Positions 2,023 through 55,940 of a DNA stretch of 64,000 bases are shown here, piece after piece. The notes beneath the pieces were generated by a model. It worked only from the letters and a program-made list of their open reading frames with translations, was not told where the DNA came from and made no database searches. Position numbers and translations under genes: made by a program. The stretch lies in NCBI RefSeq assembly GCF_988243305.1, contig NZ_OZ547136.1; one strand, given 5' to 3'. Positions within the stretch are counted from its first letter, which is position 1, and each line of letters begins with the position of its first letter.

Positions 2023-2133
2023 GCAGAAAAACGACTTTTTATAATATAAACATTTAACATGATAATATTAAAAACAGACTTTATTATCGCAATAAAAATC
2101 ACCCGAACATTCCTGTTCGGGCGATTAAATTAA

Positions 2134-3531
2134 TTATTGTTTATCCTGCATATACGGCGTGTAAACCCCGTTCAGACTGTGCAGGAAAGCTACGATATCA
2201 TCCACATCCTCCTGCGGCAGCTCTTTGCCTACCTGATAGCGCAACATCAGTTTCACCGCCCCGTCCAGCGTCGGCACATCACCGCGATGGAAGTACGGTG
2301 CCGTTAGTGCAACGTTACGTAAACCGGGTACTTTCTGACGCAATTTATCGCGCTCTTCTTTAGTAACATTCATACGACCAATATCCGCCGCCGTAATTTC
2401 ACCAAAGTTAAAGTCTTTTTTCAGCCCCAACGGTTCGAAGGAACGTCCGCCGAGAATAATACCACCATGACAAGTTGCACATTTATTATCTTTAAATAAT
2501 TGATAGCCTTTTTTCTGTTGTGCCGTCAGCGCATTCTCATCTCCACGCAACCATTTATCAAATGGGGAATCCGGCGTAATTAATGTTTTCTCAAATTCAG
2601 CAATGGCATCAGTAATATTTTCGCCACTGAAACCTTGCGGATAGACTTCGAGGAACTGCGCTTTAAGCTGCGGATCTTTTTCCAGCTTAGCAATAATTTC
2701 GTCCCAGGATTTCGACGCCATTTCAATCGGATTCAACGGCGGTCCACCAGCCTGATCCTGCAATGTTGCCGCACGACCATCCCAGAACTGCTCAACGTTA
2801 AATACTGAGTTAAATACCGTCGGCGCGTTAATCGGCCCCACTGCGCCACCAACACCAATAGATGTTTTTCTGCCATCGACGCCCCCCGCATTCAACGCAT
2901 GGCAATGAGCGCATGAAATGGTGCTATCAGCCGATAAACGGGGATCGTGATACAGCGCAAAGCCCAACGCCACTTTTTGCGCATCGGTAGGCAGTTTTTG
3001 CGGGATGGGCTGCACCGGTTCATTGCGATGCTCCGGAGCAGTATCATTACTGGCGTAATATTCTGCGCGTTGTTTTGCAATCCAGGCGAGTATTTCCGCC
3101 CGCTCTTCATCACTTACCTTACCCGCCCAGTGTAGCGCGGTATAACGCGTTGGTGGCATGGTTTCATACTGCATCACCCATTCAATCTTATTCAGATCGC
3201 TTTGCGAAACGGGTTTATCAGCCAGCAGAGCCGCACGCACGGCCTCGAGGTTAAAAGATTTATATCCAAGCTTAATGTCGTAATCCATCAACTGTTTCGC
3301 GCCAGGAATATAATAATAGGCGGGTAATTCTGCCGAAGGCGTGTGGCAATAGTCGCATCCTTTTTCGCGGAGAAAGCCTAAAACCTTATTATTTTCACTG
3401 ACAGCAGATGCCTGAACATCAGCCTGTTTACTGCGTTTATTATCGTGGTACCACACATAACCAGATAACCCTAAATAGCAAATCGCGACGCCAGCCAGGC
3501 CGATCGCGGTAATACGTGAGACCATTTTCAT
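2134..3531 (-). CDS. ccp: Cytochrome c peroxidase (di-haem, periplasmic), 465 aa
   Basis: ORF track; two CxxCH haem motifs (CDYCH, CAHCH) and a third (CATCH); N-terminal signal anchor; recognised as YhjA/Ccp. Confidence 0.95.
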   Translation of the reverse strand: MKMVSRITAIGLAGVAICYLGLSGYVWYHDNKRSKQADVQASAVSENNKVLGFLREKGCDYCHTPSAELPAYYYIPGAKQLMDYDIKLGYKSFNLEAVRAALLADKPVSQSDLNKIEWVMQYETMPPTRYTALHWAGKVSDEERAEILAWIAKQRAEYYASNDTAPEHRNEPVQPIPQKLPTDAQKVALGFALYHDPRLSADSTISCAHCHALNAGGVDGRKTSIGVGGAVGPINAPTVFNSVFNVEQFWDGRAATLQDQAGGPPLNPIEMASKSWDEIIAKLEKDPQLKAQFLEVYPQGFSGENITDAIAEFEKTLITPDSPFDKWLRGDENALTAQQKKGYQLFKDNKCATCHGGIILGGRSFEPLGLKKDFNFGEITAADIGRMNVTKEERDKLRQKVPGLRNVALTAPYFHRGDVPTLDGAVKLMLRYQVGKELPQEDVDDIVAFLHSLNGVYTPYMQDKQ

Positions 3532-3905
3532 TATTCTTCCCTCACGGTGGTGAGTTATTGTGACCCAGAAAATTTTCCAGAATGCTGCAAACGTCTCTGC
3601 GAGACAAAGCCATCATAAAAAACAGGGAGATACGCTTTTTGATAGGAATCAATCAATTACATGAATATAAACTATCAATAAGATAGCCTGTGCCTATTAT
3701 CCAGATCAGGAATGGCATAACATGATTGCGGCGAGAGCAGGATTGAATGTTCTGAAAATGAAAAACAACACGAAATCTGTATTTTTATAAATTCCATGGA
3801 TATTAGTGCGTTATATTTTTTGACAGGTAAATAAACGTGATCCACCGCACGCTTTGTCGCCCACAAGGCGGAGCGAATGACTACCCTTAAAGAAAAGCCC
3901 GATAA

Positions 3906-5585
<1,680 letters not shown>

Positions 5586-32352: not shown

Positions 32353-32540
32353 TGACCATCAGCGATATCATTGAAATTATTGTCGTTTGCGCACTGATAT
32401 TTTTCCCGCTGGGCTATCTGGCGCGGCACTCTTTGCGACGCATTCGCGACACCTTACGTTTGTTCTTTGCTAAACCTCGTTATGTTAAACCGGCCGGGAC
32501 GTTACGCCGCACGGAAAAAGCCAGGGCAACCAAAAAATGA
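32349..32540 (+). CDS. bcsF: Small membrane protein BcsF, 63 aa
   Basis: ORF track; single TM helix; start overlaps the bcsE stop. Confidence 0.9.
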
Positions 32541-34216
32541 CTCAATTTACGCAAAATACCGCCATGCCTTCTTCCCTCTGGCAATACTGGCGCGGCCTTT
32601 CCGGCTGGAACTTCTATTTTCTGGTTAAGTTCGGCCTGTTGTGGGCGGGATATCTTAACTTCCATCCGCTCCTCAATCTGGTGTTTGCCGCGTTTCTGCT
32701 GATGCCCATTCCGCGCTACAGCCTGCATCGCTTACGCCACTGGATTGCCCTGCCGATCGGCTTTGCTTTGTTCTGGCATGACACCTGGTTACCTGGCCCG
32801 GAAAGCATAATGAGCCAGGGTTCGCAGGTGGCGGGGTTCAGTACCGATTATTTAATCGACCTTGTCACACGCTTTATTAACTGGCAGATGATTGGGGCCA
32901 TTTTTGTTTTATTAGTGGCCTGGTTATTCCTGTCACAATGGATTCGCATTACCGTTTTTGTGGTTGCCATTCTGCTATGGCTGAACGTACTTACCCTGGC
33001 GGGACCAAGTTTCTCCTTGTGGCCAGCCGGTCAACCGACGACCACTGTAACAACGACGGGTGGTAACGCAGCGGCAACCGTTGCGGCGACGGGTGGCGCA
33101 CCGGTAGTGGGTGATATGCCCGCACAAACTGCACCGCCAACAACGGCGAACCTTAACGCCTGGCTGAATAATTTCTATAACGCGGAGGCGAAACGTAAAT
33201 CGACCTTCCCGTCTTCGCTGCCCGCTGATGCTCAGCCATTTGAACTACTGGTGATTAATATCTGTTCGCTTTCCTGGTCGGATATAGAAGCCGCCGGGTT
33301 GATGTCGCATCCGCTGTGGTCGCATTTCGATATTGAGTTCAAGAACTTTAACTCCGCCACCTCCTACAGTGGCCCGGCGGCGATCCGTTTACTGCGCGCC
33401 AGCTGCGGGCAGACTTCGCACACTAATCTGTATCAACCGGCAAATAATGACTGCTATCTGTTTGATAACCTGTCGAAACTGGGCTTTACCCAGCACCTGA
33501 TGATGGGACATAACGGCCAGTTCGGCGGTTTTTTGAAAGAAGTTCGCGAAAATGGCGGCATGCAGACCGAATTGATGGATCAAACAAATTTGCCGGTTAT
33601 TTTGCTGGGCTTTGATGGTTCGCCGGTTTATGACGATACCGCCGTGCTTAACCGCTGGCTGGACGTTACCGAAAAAGATAAAAACAGCCGTAGTGCCACG
33701 TTCTACAACACGCTTCCACTGCATGACGGCAACCATTATCCGGGCGTCAGCAAAACAGCGGATTACAAAGCGCGGGCGCAGAAATTCTTTGATGAACTGG
33801 ACGCCTTCTTTACTGAACTGGAGAAATCGGGTCGTAAAGTGATGGTGGTCGTGGTGCCGGAACACGGTGGCGCGCTGAAGGGCGACAGAATGCAGGTATC
33901 TGGCCTACGTGATATCCCTAGCCCGTCTATCACAGACGTCCCCGTTGGGGTGAAATTCTTCGGCATGAAGGCACCACATCAGGGGGCACCGATTGTCATC
34001 GACCAACCGAGCAGCTTCCTGGCTATCTCCGATCTGGTGGTTCGCGTTCTTGATGGCAAGATTTTCTCCGAAGACAATGTTGACTGGAAAAAACTCACCA
34101 GTGGGTTGCCACAAACAGCACCGGTCTCAGAGAACTCAAATGCAGTAGTTATTCAATACCAGGATAAACCGTACGTTCGCCTGAACGGCGGCGACTGGGT
34201 GCCTTACCCGCAATAA
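32537..34216 (+). CDS. bcsG: Cellulose phosphoethanolamine transferase BcsG, 559 aa
   Basis: ORF track; N-terminal TM segments plus alkaline-phosphatase-like periplasmic domain; start overlaps the bcsF stop. Confidence 0.95.
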
Positions 34217-34221
34217 GAACG

Positions 34222-34253
34222 AAAAAGGCCGCAGAGTTTCACCCCTGCGGCCT
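34222..34253 (-). terminator. Intrinsic terminator of ldr copy 1 (ggccgcag / ctgcggcc followed by U-run on the minus strand)
   Basis: 8-bp GC stem with a TTTTT run on the minus strand, about 50 bp 3' of the ldr stop. Confidence 0.7.
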
Positions 34254-34302
34254 GGTCCGGGCGCAAATTGCCATTACGGCAGCCTGACGCCCGCATGACA
34301 CG

Positions 34303-34410
34303 TTACTTCCGCTTATTCAGCGAGTTCACGATCAGACTGGCAAGAATGCCAGCAATGACCGGAGCCGCTAAATCATGCCAGAAGGCCATGCCCAGTTCTG
34401 CGAGCGTCAT
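34303..34410 (-). CDS. ldr: Type I toxin Ldr, 35 aa (copy 1, MTLAELGMAFWHDLAAPVIAGILASLIVNSLNKRK)
   Basis: Last 35 codons of ORF 34303..34545 from the internal ATG at 34410; matches the Ldr small membrane toxin family; carries Ser in place of Trp at residue 30. Confidence 0.85.
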   Translation of the reverse strand: MTLAELGMAFWHDLAAPVIAGILASLIVNSLNKRK

Positions 34411-34458
34411 ATAGCCGCCTCTGTTGTAATGACAACGTTTCGCGGCTATTCTTGAGTT

Positions 34459-34522
34459 GTTTGGGTTCAAGATTAGCCCCCGTGATGTTGTCAGGTGCAT
34501 ACCTGCAATATGCGGGGGTTTT
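34459..34522 (+). ncRNA. rdl: Rdl antisense RNA (antitoxin) of ldr copy 1, approximate ends
   Basis: Plus-strand stem-loop agcccccg...cgggggtttt (intrinsic terminator) antisense to the ldr leader; 5' end inferred from the recalled RdlD sequence. Confidence 0.5.
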
Positions 34523-34704
34523 CTCTCTCCAGCAACCAATGCCACTAGGGATTAAGCCCCCGCAACATTGCGCCTCACCGGAACCCTTCCGGCTTGCCGC
34601 TGATTCTACGGCCATTTTTGTTCGTCGAAATCCATCACTTCTTCACTCTGTGCTGCGCATTCCGCAGAATATTATCCGCTTGCAACCGTTGCATTTTTCT
34701 TACG

Positions 34705-34736
34705 AAAAAGGCCGCAGAGTTTTATCCCTGCGGCCT
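34705..34736 (-). terminator. Intrinsic terminator of ldr copy 2
   Basis: Same hairpin plus U-run as in unit 1, shifted by 483 bp. Confidence 0.7.
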
Positions 34737-34785
34737 GATCCGGGCGCAAATTGCCATTACGGCAGCCTGACGCCCGTCTGACACG

Positions 34786-34893
34786 TTACTTCCGCTTGTT
34801 CAGCCAGTTCACGATCAGACTGGCAAGAATGCCAGCAATGACCGGAGCCGCTAAATCATGCCAGAAGGCCATGCCCAGCTCTGCGAGCGTCAT
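34786..34893 (-). CDS. ldr: Type I toxin Ldr, 35 aa (copy 2, ...ILASLIVNWLNKRK)
   Basis: Last 35 codons of ORF 34786..35061 from the internal ATG at 34893. Confidence 0.85.
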   Translation of the reverse strand: MTLAELGMAFWHDLAAPVIAGILASLIVNWLNKRK

Positions 34894-34941
34894 ATAGCCG
34901 CCTGAGTTGTAATGACAACGTTTCGCGGCTATTCTTGTATT

Positions 34942-35005
34942 GTTTGGATGCAAGAATGGCCCCCGTGGTGTTGTCAGGTGCATACCTGCAACGTGCGGGG
35001 GTTTT
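34942..35005 (+). ncRNA. rdl: Rdl antisense RNA of ldr copy 2, approximate ends
   Basis: Plus-strand gcccccgtggtgttgtcaggtgcatacctgcaacgtgcgggggtttt stem-loop and terminator; the 5' part differs from copies 1 and 3. Confidence 0.45.
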
Positions 35006-35187
35006 CTCTCTCCAGCAACCAATGCCACCAGGGATAAAGCCCCCGCAACATTGCGCCTCACCGGAACCTTTCCGGCTTGCCGCTGATTCTACGACTGTTT
35101 TTCTGCTCCGGAATCCGTCACTTCTTCACTCTGTGCTGTGCATTCCGCAGAATATTATCCGCTTGCAACCGTTGCATTTTTCTTACG

Positions 35188-35219
35188 AAAAAGGCCGCAG
35201 AGTTTTATCCCTGCGGCCT
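35188..35219 (-). terminator. Intrinsic terminator of ldr copy 3
   Basis: Same hairpin plus U-run, shifted by 966 bp from unit 1. Confidence 0.7.
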
Positions 35220-35268
35220 GATCCGGACGCAACTTGCCATTACGGCAGCCTGACGCCCGTCTGACACG

Positions 35269-35376
35269 TTACTTCCGCTTATTCAGCCAATTCACGATCA
35301 TGCTGGCAAGAATGCCAGCAATGACCGGAGCCGCTAAATCATGCCAGAAGGCCATGCCCAGTTCTGCGAGCGTCAT
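35269..35376 (-). CDS. ldr: Type I toxin Ldr, 35 aa (copy 3, ...ILASMIVNWLNKRK)
   Basis: Last 35 codons of ORF 35269..35511 from the internal ATG at 35376. Confidence 0.85.
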   Translation of the reverse strand: MTLAELGMAFWHDLAAPVIAGILASMIVNWLNKRK

Positions 35377-35424
35377 ATAGCCGCCTGTGTTGTAATGACA
35401 ACGTTTCGCGGCTATTCTTGAGTG

Positions 35425-35488
35425 GTCTAGGTTCAAGATTAGCCCCCGTGATGTTGTCAGGTGCATACCTGCAACGTGCGGGGGTTTT
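35425..35488 (+). ncRNA. rdl: Rdl antisense RNA of ldr copy 3, approximate ends
   Basis: gtctaggttcaagattagcccccg...cgggggtttt on the plus strand; best match to the RdlD sequence as I recall it. Confidence 0.5.
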
Positions 35489-35851
35489 CTCTCTCCAGCA
35501 ACCAATGCCACCAGGGATTAAGCCCCCGCAACATTGCGCCTCACCGGAACCTTTCCGGCTTGCCGCTGATTTTACGATTGCTTTTTACCGTCAGCACCCG
35601 GCAATCTTCCTCATTGCGCGATGCCTTCCAGCTTAATTTCTTTATTTGCAATAGTTGCAGTTCATATCCGAGCTGACTCCAGACTGGTAGTGAAATGCGC
35701 AATTTTGTAGAATTGCGCCTCCTCGCGACCTCCCCAGTGAATCTGTTGCCTCATTTTTTACATACTGCGTATTCGACTTCTCCACCTGTTGCGCAAGAGA
35801 AACTGGGTTTATTCATTTTTGCGAGGCCGACTTCTTTCTGGACAGGACTTT

Positions 35852-37123
35852 ATGCAGCACAACACACTACCGAAACACAATCAGAAATTGCCGTTTACAC
35901 GCTACGACTTCGGCTGGGTTTTATTATGCATAGGCATGGCGATTGGTGCCGGAACCGTGCTGATGCCAGTACAAATTGGCTTGAAGGGAATTTGGGTATT
36001 TATTACCGCAGCGATCATTGCTTATCCTGCCACCTGGGTAGTGCAGGACATTTATTTAAAAACCCTTTCTGAAAGCGATTCCTGTAATGACTACACCGAT
36101 ATTATCAGTCATTACCTGGGGAAGAACTGGGGAATTTTCCTCGGGGTTATCTACTTTTTGATGATTATCCACGGGATTTTTATCTACTCTCTCTCCGTGG
36201 TTTTCGACAGCGCCTCGTACCTGAAAACCTTCGGTTTAACCGATGCCGATCTTTCACAATCTCTACTTTATAAAGTCGCCATTTTCGCCGTACTGGTGGC
36301 AATTGCGTCTGGTGGTGAACGATTACTGTTTAAGATTTCCGGGCCAATGGTGGTGGTCAAAGTAGGGATTATCGTCGTGTTCGGTTTTGCGATGATCCCG
36401 CACTGGAATTTCGCCAATATAACCGCCTTCCCGCAAGCCTCCGTCTTTTTCCGCGATGTCCTGCTTACCATTCCCTTTTGCTTCTTTTCTGCGGTATTTA
36501 TTCAGGTACTTAACCCAATGAATATTGCCTATCGTAAACGGGAAGCGGATAAAGTACTGGCAACCCGGCTCGCGCTGCGTACCCACCGAATTAGTTATAT
36601 CACGCTCATTGCGGTGATCCTGTTTTTTGCCTTTTCGTTTACCTTCTCAATTAGCCACGAAGAAGCCGTTTCTGCCTTTGAACAAAATATCTCGGCACTG
36701 GCACTGGCCGCGCAGGTGATCCCTGGGCATATCATTCATATCACCTCTACGGTGCTGAATATCTTTGCCGTACTGACCGCATTCTTTGGCATTTATCTCG
36801 GTTTCCACGAGGCCATTAAAGGCATTATTCTCAATCTGTTAAGCCGAATTATTGATACCAAGAAAATTAACTCACGCATGCTGACTCTGGCGATCTGCGC
36901 TTTTATCGTCATTACGTTGACGATTTGGGTTTCGTTTCGTGTATCGGTGCTGGTGTTCTTTCAGTTGGGAAGCCCGTTATATGGCATTGTGTCGTGCCTC
37001 ATTCCGTTTTTCCTGATCTATAAAGTCGCACAACTGGAAAAACTTCGCGGGTTTAAAGCCTGGCTGATTCTGCTGTACGGCATTTTGTTATGCTTGTCGC
37101 CACTGTTGAAGCTGATTGAGTAA
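35852..37123 (+). CDS. yhjV: Putative amino-acid transporter (HAAAP/STP-like inner-membrane protein), 423 aa
   Basis: ORF track 35789..37123; canonical start [15 protein letters not shown] at the internal ATG (35852); polytopic membrane protein. Confidence 0.92.
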
Positions 37124-43460: not shown

Positions 43461-43560
43461 GAATTTGGTCGGTGCCAGAGGATTACTCGCCACTTCGTGG
43501 CTCGCCCTGCGGGCCGTTGCTGGCGCAACGTTCTCTCGCTTCGCTCGAGTCGAACCTCCC
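43461..43560 (-). other. tRNA-Pro-like 3' fragment (pseudo-tRNA remnant) with an approximately 60-nt insertion
   Basis: In proK orientation the segment reads ...ggaggttcga-[about 63 nt]-atcctctggcaccgaccaaattc, matching the proK T-arm and acceptor 3' end plus 6 flanking bases (ggaggttcgaatcctctatcaccgaccaaattc). Confidence 0.4.
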
Positions 43561-43597
43561 TGCCCCCGGAGGTTCTCATCCTCATAGGCTACAAATG

Positions 43598-43630
43598 CAA
43601 AAAAGCCTGCTCGTTGAGCAGGCTTTTCGA
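43598..43630 (-). terminator. proK intrinsic terminator (agcctgctc gttg agcaggct, U-run on the minus strand)
   Basis: 9/8-bp GC-rich stem followed by TTTTTT directly 3' of the tRNA. Confidence 0.85.
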
Positions 43631-43633
43631 ATT

Positions 43634-43710
<77 letters not shown>

Positions 43711-54870: not shown

Positions 54871-54907
54871 TTGCATCACCCGCCAATGCGTGGCTTAATG
54901 CACATCA
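54871..54907 (+). promoter_or_regulatory. cspA promoter (-35 TTGCAT, -10 CTTAAT, AT-rich UP element upstream)
   Basis: Hexamers with 17-bp spacing ending about 8 bp before the inferred transcription start at 54908. Confidence 0.65.
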
Positions 54908-55066
54908 ACGGTTTGACGTACAGACCATTAAAGCAGTGTAGTAAGGCAAGTCCCTTCAAGAGTTATCGTTGATACCCCTCGTAGTGCACATTCCTTTAAC
55001 GCTTCAAAATCTGTAAAGCACGCCATATCGCCGAAAGGCACACTTAATTATTAAAGGTAATACACT
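54908..55066 (+). promoter_or_regulatory. cspA 159-nt 5' UTR (RNA thermosensor) including the cold box TGACGTACAGA at 54914..54924
   Basis: Cold-box sequence present near the 5' end of the leader; long untranslated leader before the cspA Shine-Dalgarno. Confidence 0.75.
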
Positions 55067-55279
55067 ATGTCCGGTAAAATGACTGGTATCGTAAAATGGT
55101 TCAACGCTGACAAAGGCTTCGGCTTCATCACTCCTGACGATGGCTCTAAAGACGTGTTCGTACACTTCTCTGCTATCCAGAACGATGGTTACAAATCTCT
55201 GGACGAAGGTCAGAAAGTGTCCTTCACCATCGAAAGCGGCGCTAAAGGCCCGGCAGCTGGTAACGTAACCAGCCTGTAA
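55067..55279 (+). CDS. cspA: Major cold-shock protein CspA, 70 aa
   Basis: ORF track; RNP1 KGFGFI and RNP2 VFVHF motifs; exact recognition of [34 protein letters not shown]... Confidence 0.98.
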
Positions 55280-55306
55280 TCTCTGCTTAAAAGCACAGAA
55301 TCTAAG

Positions 55307-55335
55307 ATCCCTGCCATTTGGCGGGGATTTTTTTA
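55307..55335 (+). terminator. cspA intrinsic terminator (atccctgcc attt ggcggggat followed by TTTTTTT)
   Basis: GC-rich hairpin plus T7 run 28 bp after the cspA stop. Confidence 0.9.
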
Positions 55336-55466: not shown

Positions 55467-55619
55467 TTACTCTTTCAAATTGCAGGCTAAAAATGCCGCC
55501 AGCTCATAACTCCCCTGTTTAATATGCAATTCACACAGTGAATCTCTTATCATCCAGGTGAAAAATAAAAGCGTGCAACAAATCACTATTAAAGAAAGTA
55601 ATCTATATTTCTGCGGCAT
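55467..55619 (-). CDS. hokA: Type I toxin HokA (Hok/Gef family small membrane toxin), 50 aa
   Basis: Internal ATG of ORF 55467..55679 with AGGAGG Shine-Dalgarno 6 nt upstream; MPQKYRLLSLIVICCTLLFFTWMIRDSLCELHIKQGSYELAAFLACNLKE. Confidence 0.88.
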   Translation of the reverse strand: MPQKYRLLSLIVICCTLLFFTWMIRDSLCELHIKQGSYELAAFLACNLKE

Positions 55620-55940
55620 TCCCAGCCTCCTGTGTTGATTTCCAACGAGTAAGAGGCTAACCTTATGGTGTTCAGGCATAGGGTAGCCTCACTTTGATTT
55701 ATAGTCAGGTGGGGCTTTTCTCTGTCTGCCTTTCGGTGAATACCTGAGACAAACAGTCTCAAGCACCCGCAGCTATTCTAGCTTAATAAGTTCGTTTCTT
55801 CTCCTTGATATAATCCTAAAAAAATCTCATAAAATTAATATATGAGACAATCTTTATTCAGCAGAAGATTATTAAAGGTTGCTCTATTATTTAGCGATAA
55901 AAAAGCCTGCCAGATGGCAGGCTTTTTAATAACGGCGTTA

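What the first reader, a model, noticed from the sequence alone, without database searches (positions are those of the whole stretch)
34303..35376. The three Ldr toxin copies are not identical (W30S in copy 1, L/M at residue 26)
Copy 1 reads ...ILASLIVNSLNKRK, copy 2 ...ILASLIVNWLNKRK and copy 3 ...ILASMIVNWLNKRK. Trp30 lies in the C-terminal part of the predicted single transmembrane helix, so the Ser substitution in copy 1 could change toxicity. The Rdl region of copy 2 also diverges in its 5' part (ggatgcaagaatggcccccgtggtg versus ggttcaagattagcccccgtgatg), which could alter antisense pairing.
Basis: seen in the sequence. Interest (0 to 1): 0.35.

Follow-up and report, generated by a model that had tools for sequence, protein, structure and literature searches.

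The report
Three-copy ldrD/rdlD toxin-antitoxin array
This is an ordinary, already-annotated E. coli tandem array of three LdrD toxin / RdlD antisense-RNA modules whose copy-to-copy differences are common natural alleles, although one copy lacks the tryptophan that is otherwise the hallmark of this toxin family and nobody has tested what that does.

Summary
Three 35-aa Ldr ORFs on the minus strand (34303-34410, 34786-34893, 35269-35376) differ exactly as described: S30/L26, W30/L26 and W30/M26. Each has its own RdlD antisense gene, and Rdl2 differs in its 5' tail.

The array lies between bcsG and yhjV. It is therefore an expanded version of the K-12 single-copy ldrD/rdlD locus, not ldrABC. About 61% of 5,426 complete E. 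coli genomes carry 2-5 copies here.

None of the differences is private:
- The S30 allele (RefSeq WP_000170736.1) occurs once per genome in at least 320 genomes, including 042, IAI39 and SMS-3-5. It was the bcsG-proximal edge unit in 10 of 10 arrays checked.
- The Rdl2-type tail occurs in 1,825 genomes.
- L/M26 is conservative variation.

W30 is the signature Trp of the Fst/Ldr superfamily (48 of 50 family representatives). However, Fst-pAD1 has Val there and is still toxic, and the S30 gene shows no sign of decay. Its effect on toxicity is untested.

The Rdl 5' tail pairs with a predicted exposed mRNA hairpin loop, which is the variation hotspot of the unit. Predicted energies favour cognate pairs, with module 2 the most insulated. 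Relaxed constraint explains the hotspot as well as selection for specificity does.

Verdict: known system, low novelty, modest interest.

The parts
34219..35586 (-). Tandem LDR-D array: three 483-bp units (unit 1 34219-34701, unit 2 34702-35184, unit 3 35185-~35667) between bcsG and yhjV
   Evidence: TRF period 483, 2.8 copies, 93% matches. Three-way alignment shows 94% mean column identity. Unit 3's 5' flank and unit 1's 3' end match the edges of the K-12 single-copy LDR-D.
34303..34410 (-). ldr copy 1 CDS (35 aa; L26, S30); identical to RefSeq WP_000170736.1
   Evidence: ORF and translation. Pfam Ldr_toxin 83.4 bits. Annotated in NY1601, 042, IAI39, SMS-3-5 and others.
34321..34323 (-). Codon 30 of copy 1, TCG (Ser) instead of TGG (Trp); the variant base is at 34322
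   Evidence: Alignment column 380 of the units. A 41-mer centred on this base is found in 320 of 5,426 complete genomes, once per genome.
34786..34893 (-). ldr copy 2 CDS (L26, W30); WP_000170738.1
35269..35376 (-). ldr copy 3 CDS (M26, W30); WP_001295224.1. Differs from K-12 LdrD only by L3 versus F3.
34459..34524 (+). Rdl1 antisense RNA gene (tail GUUUGGGUUCAAGAUUAG; CG>UA at nt 51-52 keeps the stem paired)
   Evidence: Rfam RF01813 86.2 bits, model positions 1-66 of 66. Fold shows a free 5' tail plus stem-loop, -30.2 kcal/mol.
34942..35007 (+). Rdl2 antisense RNA gene (divergent tail GUUUGGAUGCAAGAAUGG)
   Evidence: Rfam 81.7 bits. The exact 34-mer covering all five variant positions is present in 1,825 of 5,426 genomes.
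35425..35490 (+). Rdl3 antisense RNA gene (tail GUCUAGGUUCAAGAUUAG)
   Evidence: Rfam 90.4 bits. The start coincides with the K-12 rdlD annotation offset, 49 nt from the ldrD AUG.
34226..34253 (-). Intrinsic terminator of ldr mRNA 1 (equivalents at 34709-34736 and 35192-35219)
   Evidence: 11-bp GC-rich stem followed by a T-run, three sites on the minus strand.
34456..34466 (-). Predicted apical loop of a small 5'-UTR hairpin in ldr mRNA 1, complementary to Rdl nt 1-8; the variation hotspot of the unit (equivalents near 34939-34949 and 35422-35432)
   Evidence: P(unpaired) about 1.0 in all three mRNA folds. The stem is invariant in 27 units, and 9 of 13 loop sites vary against 37 of 363 elsewhere, p=1.4e-6.
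34401..34434 (-). SD/AUG region of ldr mRNA 1, predicted to pair with the 3' UTR (34269-34293) in a hok-like fold-back that sequesters the translation initiation region
   Evidence: MFE and consensus folds; 25 pairs are kept in all 27 units, including K-12 ldrABC, but they are invariant so there is no covariation. The mRNA fold has z = -8.54.
34603..34608 (-). Putative -10 box (TAGAAT) of the ldr copy 1 promoter (equivalents: 35086-35091 TAGAAT, 35569-35574 TAAAAT)
   Evidence: Read from the alignment. Its position fits a long 5' UTR. The consensus promoter scan found nothing at its threshold, so this is an inference.
32537..34216 (+). bcsG (flanking gene that defines the locus)
   Evidence: Pfam CBP_BcsG 784 bits; RefSeq annotation in matching genomes.
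35852..37123 (+). yhjV (flanking gene on the other side)
   Evidence: Trp_Tyr_perm match; annotated as yhjV in matching genomes.

Best explanation
The region is a three-unit tandem expansion of the chromosomal ldrD/rdlD type I toxin-antitoxin locus of E. coli, between bcsG and yhjV.

How each unit works. Each 483-bp unit is a self-contained module. On the minus strand it encodes a highly structured mRNA of about 370 nt: a long 5' UTR, a 35-aa membrane toxin ORF, and a 3' UTR with a terminator. On the plus strand it encodes a ~66-nt Rdl antisense RNA complementary to mRNA positions -114 to -49 relative to the AUG. According to the literature on K-12, Rdl represses LdrD synthesis post-transcriptionally and forms an RNase III-sensitive duplex with the mRNA in vivo; the exact step that is blocked is unknown.

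What I infer here. The translation initiation region is locked by a long-range helix with the 3' UTR. The free 5' tail of Rdl nucleates on an exposed hairpin loop in the 5' UTR.

Where the copy differences come from. They are standing natural polymorphism, not new events. Array size changes by unequal recombination between units (1 to 5 copies across strains), and internal units are mosaics. The W30S change lies only ~100 bp from the bcsG-proximal edge of the array, so it stays locked in the terminal unit and is inherited vertically in a subset of lineages.

Likely consequences:
- L/M26 is a conservative hydrophobic swap.
- W30S removes the interfacial signature Trp. It most likely weakens membrane anchoring or toxicity rather than abolishing it (inference, untested).
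- The Rdl tail differences leave cognate pairing perfect and lower predicted cross-pairing, most strongly for module 2.
For: Identity and locus:
- Pfam Ldr_toxin matches for all three ORFs, plus BcsG and a YhjV-like permease as flanks.
- Three full-length Rfam rdlD matches.
- The K-12 reference has a single ldrD/rdlD between bcsG and yhjV with the same offsets.
- Unit edges match the K-12 LDR-D edges.
- LdrD is a solved structure, PDB 5LBJ.

Population data:
- The window is 99.9% identical to E. coli NY1601, which has the same three alleles.
- The inter-unit junction occurs in 3,304 of 5,426 genomes, with a median of 2 and a maximum of 4 junctions per genome.
- Arrays of 1 to at least 5 units were seen directly.
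- The S30 41-mer occurs in 320 genomes, always once. The S30 unit is terminal in 10 of 10 arrays.
- The S30 peptide is seen on at least 1000 contigs.
- The Rdl2-type tail occurs in 1,825 genomes.
- Rdl tails are mosaic across units.

S30 is not decaying:
- There are 0 CDS differences against 7-9 flank differences between S30 units of diverged strains.
- The -10 box, SD, Rdl and terminators are intact.
- It is the sole copy in the ST648 record.

W30 is the signature residue:
- 48 of 50 representatives have W.
- W30S costs 7.3 bits against the Pfam model.
- PMC2887945 and PMC7472228 describe it as the superfamily signature.

RNA:
- Full-duplex energies are -137 to -145 kcal/mol for cognate pairs and -111 to -130 for non-cognate pairs. 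Tail-only energies are -29 to -31 against -9 to -26.
- The mRNA fold has z = -8.54.
- The fold-back and the loop hairpin are present in all 27 units.
- An RNase III-cleaved ldrD-rdlD duplex forms in vivo (PMC7373196).
Against: - No experiment on any of these alleles exists in the searchable literature. The 2021 review states that LdrD mutagenesis had not been done and that the RdlD mechanism is unknown (PMC8309996).
- The predicted RNA helices are invariant, so they have no covariation support.
- The edge-locking explanation for S30 is an inference from position and from one-copy-per-genome counts.
- The 320-genome count is a lower bound, because the 28-base seed also spans neighbouring variable codons.
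- The single-copy ST648 record could be a collapsed assembly.
- ldr promoters were placed by eye; the consensus scan found none.
Confidence: 0.85

Rival explanations
1. Copy 1 is a dead or dying toxin gene. Loss of the signature Trp inactivates LdrD, and the terminal unit is drifting toward a pseudogene.
For: W is nearly invariant at this position (48 of 50 representatives). W30S costs 7.3 bits against the Pfam model. The Trp is the superfamily signature (PMC2887945, PMC7472228). Terminal units also carry other private substitutions (V28M in CFSAN018748, F3 in K-12).
Against: The S30 CDS is identical in diverged lineages, while its flanks differ at 7-9 sites. No frameshift or stop was seen in 10 S30 loci, and 316 of 320 genomes match the 41-mer perfectly. 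The promoter -10 box, SD, Rdl and terminators are intact. It is the only D-type copy in the ST648 record. Fst-pAD1 has Val at the equivalent position and is toxic (PMC7472228).
Confidence: 0.2
2. The hypervariable Rdl tail and mRNA loop are under diversifying selection, so that each module in an array is repressed only by its own antitoxin. This would parallel the target-recognition domains of Sib RNAs.
For: The hotspot coincides with the single-stranded Rdl tail and an exposed mRNA loop flanked by an invariant stem. 9 of 13 loop sites vary against 5 of 35 third codon positions (p=5e-4) and 37 of 363 elsewhere (p=1.4e-6). Cognate pairs are predicted to be the most stable. In Sib/Ibs the discrimination domains lie in the variable regions (PMC2943612). 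7 of 10 multi-copy arrays have all tails distinct.
Against: The part of the loop that lies outside Rdl (alignment columns 147-150) is as variable (3 of 4 sites) as the part inside it (6 of 9). Relaxed constraint in the one unpaired segment of a tightly structured RNA therefore explains the hotspot equally well. Within-array tail sharing is not significantly below chance (3 identical pairs against 5.3-5.9 expected, p=0.12-0.18). Some arrays have identical adjacent tails. Rdl1 is predicted to pair well with ldr3 (-25.8 against -28.7 for the cognate pair). Non-cognate full duplexes are still below -110 kcal/mol.
Confidence: 0.3
3. The differences are sequencing or assembly artefacts of a repeat region.
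For: Tandem 483-bp repeats are prone to collapse and consensus errors. One base in copy 1 (34546) is private to this window relative to its 99.9% relative.
Against: Every allele discussed recurs exactly in hundreds to thousands of independent complete genomes and in the protein collection. NY1601 has the same three-allele arrangement.
Confidence: 0.02

Closest known systems
E. coli K-12 ldrD/rdlD (LDR-D) type I toxin-antitoxin locus
   Same: The flanking genes are the same (bcsG, yhjV). The unit architecture and offsets are the same. Copy 3 differs from K-12 LdrD (PDB 5LBJ) by one residue (L3 versus F3). The rdlD covariance-model matches are full length.
   Different: There are three tandem units instead of one. 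Internal units have a different upstream (promoter-side) sequence from the K-12 unit. The terminal unit encodes S30 instead of W30. The Rdl tails differ from K-12 RdlD (GUCUAGAGUC...).
E. coli K-12 ldrA-rdlA / ldrB-rdlB / ldrC-rdlC tandem array (kdsA-chaA locus)
   Same: It is also a three-unit tandem array of Ldr/Rdl modules. The UTR elements are shared (fold-back helix, hairpin stem), and W30 is conserved.
   Different: It lies at a different chromosomal locus, has a 535-bp period and encodes an LdrB-group peptide (MTLAQFAM...SWWRNRK). The window's junction sequence has no 28-mer in common with it.
hok/sok (and mok) of plasmid R1 and chromosomal homologues
   Same: The antisense RNA targets the 5' UTR rather than the toxin RBS. 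The stable, highly folded mRNA is predicted to have 5'/3' fold-back pairing that sequesters the initiation region. A leader ORF (ldrX) has been hypothesised by analogy with mok (PMC4147584, PMC8167048). The sok model gives weak sub-threshold matches to the ldr 5' UTRs (26-30 bits against a gathering score of 59).
   Different: The toxins are unrelated. No conserved leader ORF could be confirmed here: the 25-aa upstream ORF loses its AUG in some units and is truncated in copy 1. 3' processing and activation have not been shown for ldr.
Ibs/Sib multi-copy type I systems
   Same: They are multi-copy cis-antisense modules with small sequence differences. In Sib, the variable regions are the target-recognition domains that enforce cognate-only repression (PMC2943612). 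Here the variable region coincides with the predicted recognition tail and loop.
   Different: Sib overlaps the whole ibs ORF and has two recognition domains. Discrimination among Rdl RNAs has not been tested, and my within-array test was not significant.
Fst (par locus of pAD1) and the Fst/Ldr superfamily
   Same: It is a small single-helix membrane toxin with a PxxxG motif, a Trp at the helix end and a charged C-terminus (PMC7472228, PMC2887945).
   Different: Fst-pAD1 naturally has Val at the Trp position and is toxic, which is the best available precedent that S30 need not be inactive. Fst regulation uses 3'-overlapping RNAs.

Membership tests
Ldr toxin family (Pfam PF13940; LdrD group) | 35-aa peptide matching the Ldr_toxin profile end to end | tested here: met
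   All three ORFs match positions 1-35 of 35 at 83.4-93.2 bits against a cut-off of 27. The phmmer match to PDB 5LBJ LdrD has E=1e-16.
Ldr toxin family (Pfam PF13940; LdrD group) | Superfamily signature: conserved Trp after the TM helix, followed by a cluster of charged residues | tested here: not met
   The feature is met by copies 2 and 3 (W30 followed by LNKRK). It is not met by copy 1, which has S30; its KRK tail is retained. The literature notes that the signature Trp is not essential, since Fst-pAD1 has Val (PMC7472228). Copy 1 therefore remains a family member by overall sequence.
Ldr toxin family (Pfam PF13940; LdrD group) | PxxxG motif within the transmembrane segment | tested here: met
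   P17-V-I-A-G21 is present in all three copies. The motif is described in PMC7472228.
Ldr toxin family (Pfam PF13940; LdrD group) | Toxicity on overexpression (growth arrest, nucleoid condensation) | not testable with these tools
   This has been shown only for K-12 LdrD and LdrA in the literature (PMC8309996). No data exist for the S30 or L26 alleles.
RdlD antitoxin RNA (Rfam RF01813) | ~66-nt RNA with a single-stranded 5' tail and a long terminator stem-loop, scoring above the family's gathering score | tested here: met
   Scores are 81.7-90.4 bits against a gathering score of 50, all covering model positions 1-66. The MFE folds show a free tail plus stem-loop at about -30 kcal/mol. The substitutions at nt 17 and 51-52 keep pairing.
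RdlD antitoxin RNA (Rfam RF01813) | Encoded in cis, antisense to the ldr 5' UTR and not overlapping the RBS | tested here: met
   Each Rdl lies on the + strand, 49-114 nt upstream of the AUG of its minus-strand ldr, the same offset as K-12 rdlD.
RdlD antitoxin RNA (Rfam RF01813) | Expression, and repression of the cognate ldr | not testable with these tools
   A putative Rdl promoter (TTGTAA, 17-nt spacer, TATTCT) was read by eye. The promoter scan threshold was not reached.
Type I toxin-antitoxin tandem array at the ldrD (bcsG-yhjV) locus | Location between bcsG and yhjV with head-to-tail LDR-D units | tested here: met
   The same layout is annotated by PGAP in many complete genomes.
hok/sok-like regulation through a leader ORF (ldrX hypothesis) | A conserved small ORF in the 5' UTR whose initiation region is covered by the antisense RNA and which is coupled to toxin translation | tested here: inconclusive
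   An in-frame AUG inside the Rdl-loop complement is open into ldr in the D-type units, but this is not conserved in K-12 ldrB/C. The 25-aa upstream ORF loses its AUG in some units and is truncated in copy 1.

The most novel reading that the evidence does not exclude
The LDR-D array is a set of partly orthogonal toxin-antitoxin modules. The hypervariable Rdl 5' tail and mRNA loop act as a specificity code that is diversified and reshuffled by recombination, as in Sib/Ibs recognition domains or plasmid incompatibility loops. The edge-locked S30 allele is a naturally attenuated toxin that lacks the superfamily's signature Trp yet is kept intact by selection.
Probability: 0.2. Interest if true: 0.45.

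Novelty: already known. Interest (0 to 1): 0.2.

Why it matters
It matters little for discovery. The system, its multi-copy nature and the exact protein alleles are already in RefSeq and in the type I toxin-antitoxin literature.

Its modest value is as a set of ready-made natural experiments:
- A common E. coli allele lacks the one residue used to define the Fst/Ldr superfamily. Comparing it with its W30 neighbours would be a cheap first structure-function test for LdrD, for which no mutagenesis has been reported.
- Seven natural Rdl tail haplotypes were seen among the 12 strains compared. These offer a direct way to test whether Rdl RNAs discriminate between cognate and non-cognate ldr mRNAs, and where the still-unknown RdlD-ldrD interaction begins.
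- K-12's single copy is the minority state at this locus, which is relevant when K-12 results are generalised.

Tried and rejected
1. Nonsense mutation in an upstream ORF. Copy 1 has TGG>TAG in a 25-aa ORF upstream of ldr, which I considered as a possible ldrX or second sign of decay. I rejected this. The change is private to this window (NY1601 has TGG). The ORF's AUG is lost through a 1-nt G-run difference in IAI39, SMS-3-5, ECCNB12-2 and IMT16316 units. The G>A simply converts a G.U pair to A-U in a conserved stem.

2. Stronger SD linked to S30. Copy 1 has GAGG where other units have CAGG, and I asked whether this compensates for a weaker toxin. I rejected this because the same SD variant occurs with W30 units in CFSAN018748, 042, IAI39 and others.

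3. W30S as an RNA-level change. I rejected this. The base is unpaired in the consensus fold. In-silico reversion changes the MFE by only 2.2 kcal/mol and leaves SD/AUG accessibility unchanged.

4. Covariation support for the fold-back and the hairpin. There is none, because all 39 tested pairs are essentially invariant.

5. Within-array orthogonality test. The result was not significant.

7. Kawano 2012 review. It is not held in the library, so mapped transcript ends and the original ldrX definition could not be checked.

8. Promoter scan. The consensus scan found no site at its threshold, so promoter positions are by eye only.

9. Correction. The codon-position classes were mis-framed by one base. 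One search corrects them.
Full report
**Observation**

The window carries three minus-strand 35-codon ORFs at 34303-34410, 34786-34893 and 35269-35376. Their products are:
- copy 1: MTLAELGMAFWHDLAAPVIAGILASLIVNSLNKRK
- copy 2: ...ASLIVNWLNKRK
- copy 3: ...ASMIVNWLNKRK

All three match Pfam Ldr_toxin over its full length, at 83.4, 90.7 and 93.2 bits. On the plus strand, 49 nt beyond each AUG, lies a full-length Rfam rdlD match: 34459-34524, 34942-35007 and 35425-35490, at 81.7-90.4 bits against a gathering score of 50.

The units form a 483-bp tandem repeat at 34219-35586. Each has its own ldr terminator and its own Rdl terminator.

Rdl2 differs from Rdl1 at nt 7, 9, 15, 17, 27, 51 and 52, and from Rdl3 at nt 3, 5, 7, 9, 15, 17 and 27. 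Rdl1 and Rdl3 differ at four positions.

**What the locus is**

The array lies between bcsG (32537-34216) and yhjV (35852-37123). In K-12 MG1655 that intergenic region holds the single ldrD/rdlD module, while ldrABC sits elsewhere, between kdsA and chaA. Unit 3's upstream flank and unit 1's 3' end match the two edges of the K-12 LDR-D. The array is therefore an internal expansion of the ldrD locus.

The window is E. coli. It is 99.9% identical over this region to strains NY1601 and Z1323HEC0462. PGAP annotates three 'Ldr family' genes there, and NY1601 carries the same three alleles.

**Population context**

The inter-unit junction sequence is absent from both K-12 Ldr loci. It occurs in 3,304 of 5,426 complete E. 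coli genomes, with a median of two and a maximum of four junctions per genome. Multi-copy arrays of 2-5 units are therefore the majority state, and K-12's single copy is the minority state. Arrays of 1, 2, 3, 4 and at least 5 units were seen directly. Fozo et al. 2010 (PMC2887945) had already described lineage-specific duplication of Ldr loci.

**The S30 allele**

I used a 41-base query centred on the variant base, so that every 28-base seed must contain it. It matches 320 of 5,426 genomes, always once per genome. These include reference strains 042, IAI39, SMS-3-5 and CE10. The count is a lower bound, because the seed also spans neighbouring variable codons.

The peptide is RefSeq WP_000170736.1, and it is recorded on at least 1000 contigs in the protein collection.

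In all ten arrays inspected, the S30 gene is the bcsG-proximal terminal unit, whatever the array size. In the ST648 record it is the only copy.

The variant base lies about 100 bp from the array edge. My inference is that unequal crossovers between units almost always fall upstream of it, so the variant stays locked at the edge and is inherited vertically. Other terminal units also carry private substitutions (V28M in CFSAN018748, F3 in K-12).

**Is the S30 copy decaying?**

The evidence says no:
- S30 units from diverged strains differ at 7-9 sites in their flanks but at none in the CDS.
- The putative -10 box, SD, Rdl gene and terminators are intact.

Two apparent signs of decay or compensation did not hold up:
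- The TGG>TAG change that truncates a 25-aa upstream ORF is private to this window. It lies in an ORF that is not conserved, and it converts a G.U pair to A-U in a conserved stem.
- The GAGG SD variant also accompanies W30 units.

**How unusual is Ser at position 30?**

A phmmer search of 1.84 billion cluster representatives returned 64 family members. Of the 50 that cover position 30, 48 have Trp and 2 have Arg. The W30S change alone costs 7.3 bits against the Pfam model.

Fozo 2010 (PMC2887945) and Weaver 2020 (PMC7472228) name this Trp, located between the TM helix and the charged C-terminus, as the signature of the Fst/Ldr superfamily. Weaver also points out that the Fst-pAD1 prototype has Val there and is toxic, so the Trp is not essential.

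LdrD has an NMR structure (5LBJ). The 2021 review states that no LdrD mutagenesis had been done (PMC8309996), and I found none since.

From general membrane-protein knowledge, an interfacial Trp-to-Ser change should weaken anchoring at the cytoplasmic interface. I therefore consider attenuation the most likely effect, but this is an inference.

Position 26 varies among M, A, L, I and V across the family, so L/M26 is ordinary variation.

**The RNA side**

Each predicted ldr mRNA is exceptionally structured: MFE -178.9 kcal/mol for 375 nt, z = -8.54.

I built a consensus fold of 27 distinct units from 12 strains plus K-12 ldrABC. In every sequence it retains three elements:
- a 25-bp helix between the SD/AUG region and the 3' UTR;
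- a 5'/3' helix;
- a small hairpin with an invariant stem (UCUUG/CAAGA).

These pairs are invariant. The support is therefore conservation, with the UTRs more conserved than the CDS between D-type and ABC-type units, and not covariation.

The hairpin's 11-13-nt loop is predicted to be fully unpaired and is complementary to Rdl nt 1-8. This suggests tail-to-loop nucleation, as in Sok/hok. In vivo formation of an RNase III-cleaved ldrD-rdlD duplex has been published (PMC7373196). The step that is blocked is unknown (PMC8309996), and the ldrX leader-ORF idea is unconfirmed (PMC4147584). I could not identify a conserved leader ORF.

**The variation hotspot**

That loop is the variation hotspot of the whole unit. 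9 of 13 sites vary, against 5 of 35 third codon positions (p=5e-4) and 37 of 363 sites elsewhere (p=1.4e-6) (one search gave a similar result for the Rdl tail). Tails are mosaics of a few variable blocks, giving seven haplotypes among the strains examined. The Rdl2-type tail of this window is a common allele, present in 1,825 genomes.

Predicted energies favour cognate pairs:
- Full duplex: -137 to -145 kcal/mol for cognate pairs, against -111 to -130 for non-cognate pairs.
- Tail only: -29 to -31 for cognate pairs, against -9 to -17 for pairs involving module 2.
- Rdl1 on ldr3 still reaches -25.8, against -28.7 for the cognate pair.

This resembles Sib/Ibs, where the variable regions are the discrimination domains (PMC2943612). 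Two results keep me from endorsing that reading:
- The part of the loop that lies outside Rdl is just as variable as the part inside it (3 of 4 sites against 6 of 9). Relaxed constraint in the one unpaired segment is an equally good explanation.
- Co-resident units do not share tails significantly less often than chance predicts (3 identical pairs against 5.3-5.9 expected, p=0.12-0.18).

**Verdict**

The finding is real but ordinary. It is a three-unit ldrD/rdlD array, and its copy-to-copy differences are common, already-annotated natural alleles.

Cognate antisense pairing cannot be altered, because each Rdl is cis-encoded; only cross-talk between copies can be.

The most interesting residue of the finding is twofold. 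A widespread E. coli allele lacks the superfamily's signature Trp while staying intact. In addition, the natural tail haplotypes provide material to test Rdl specificity. Novelty: already known. Interest: 0.2.

Noticed in passing
window 55617-55768 (-), next to 54907-55334 (+): A second type I toxin-antitoxin element lies in the same window. There is a strong Rfam sok match (124 bits against a gathering score of 59) immediately downstream of the cspA thermoregulator 5' UTR (501 bits). By position it is presumably a chromosomal hok/sok homologue.
   Followed up: no
window 34891-35044, 34408-34561, 35374-35527 (-): The sok covariance model gives weak, sub-threshold, full-length matches (26-30 bits, E 4e-4 to 3e-3) to each ldr 5' UTR. 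This may reflect a structural resemblance between the ldr and hok leader regions, in line with the 'regulated like hok/sok' view.
   Followed up: partly
window 34546 (copy 1 5' UTR): A G>A change is private to this window relative to its 99.9% relative NY1601. It creates a TAG in a non-conserved 25-aa upstream ORF and converts a G.U pair to A-U in a conserved predicted stem.
   Followed up: yes
window 34401-34434 with 34269-34293 (and equivalents in units 2 and 3): The UTR segments predicted to pair across the CDS are more conserved between LdrD-type and LdrA/B/C-type units than the coding sequence itself. This points to strong RNA-level constraint, namely a hok-like fold-back that sequesters the SD/AUG.
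   Followed up: partly
E. coli genome searches: A few LDR-D matches are on records labelled as plasmids: 29 places for the 2.2-kb query, 3 for the junction and 1 for the Rdl2 tail. Ldr loci are generally described as chromosomal, and these hits were not examined. They could be mislabelled replicons or real mobilisation.
   Followed up: no
L010 (E. coli ST648, NZ_CP008697.1) versus L009 (IMT16316): Two strains have identical BcsG and YhjV proteins but carry 1 and 4 LDR-D units respectively. The single unit in ST648 encodes S30 and has a first-unit-type upstream region. This is what recombination between the first and last units, or an assembly collapse, would produce.
   Followed up: partly
L005 (E. 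coli IAI39) 2127-4041: bcsG next to the Ldr array is truncated by an IS4-family insertion in IAI39.
   Followed up: no
RefSeq records matched: PGAP annotates the Ldr CDSs in these arrays but no Rdl ncRNA genes ('annotated features under the match: none'), whereas the K-12 record annotates rdlA-D. The antitoxin genes of multi-copy arrays are therefore systematically unannotated.
   Followed up: no
window 43466-43601 (-) and 43637-43710 (-): An RtT RNA element (98.7 bits) lies adjacent to a tRNA gene. It is unrelated to the finding.
   Followed up: no
L004 (E. coli 042) units at 1 and 967; L012 (EcPF15) unit at 2050: A further natural LdrD allele, R34Q (…NWLNKQK, WP_000170743.1), reduces the positive charge of the C-terminal tail. 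It recurs in internal units of two strains.
   Followed up: no
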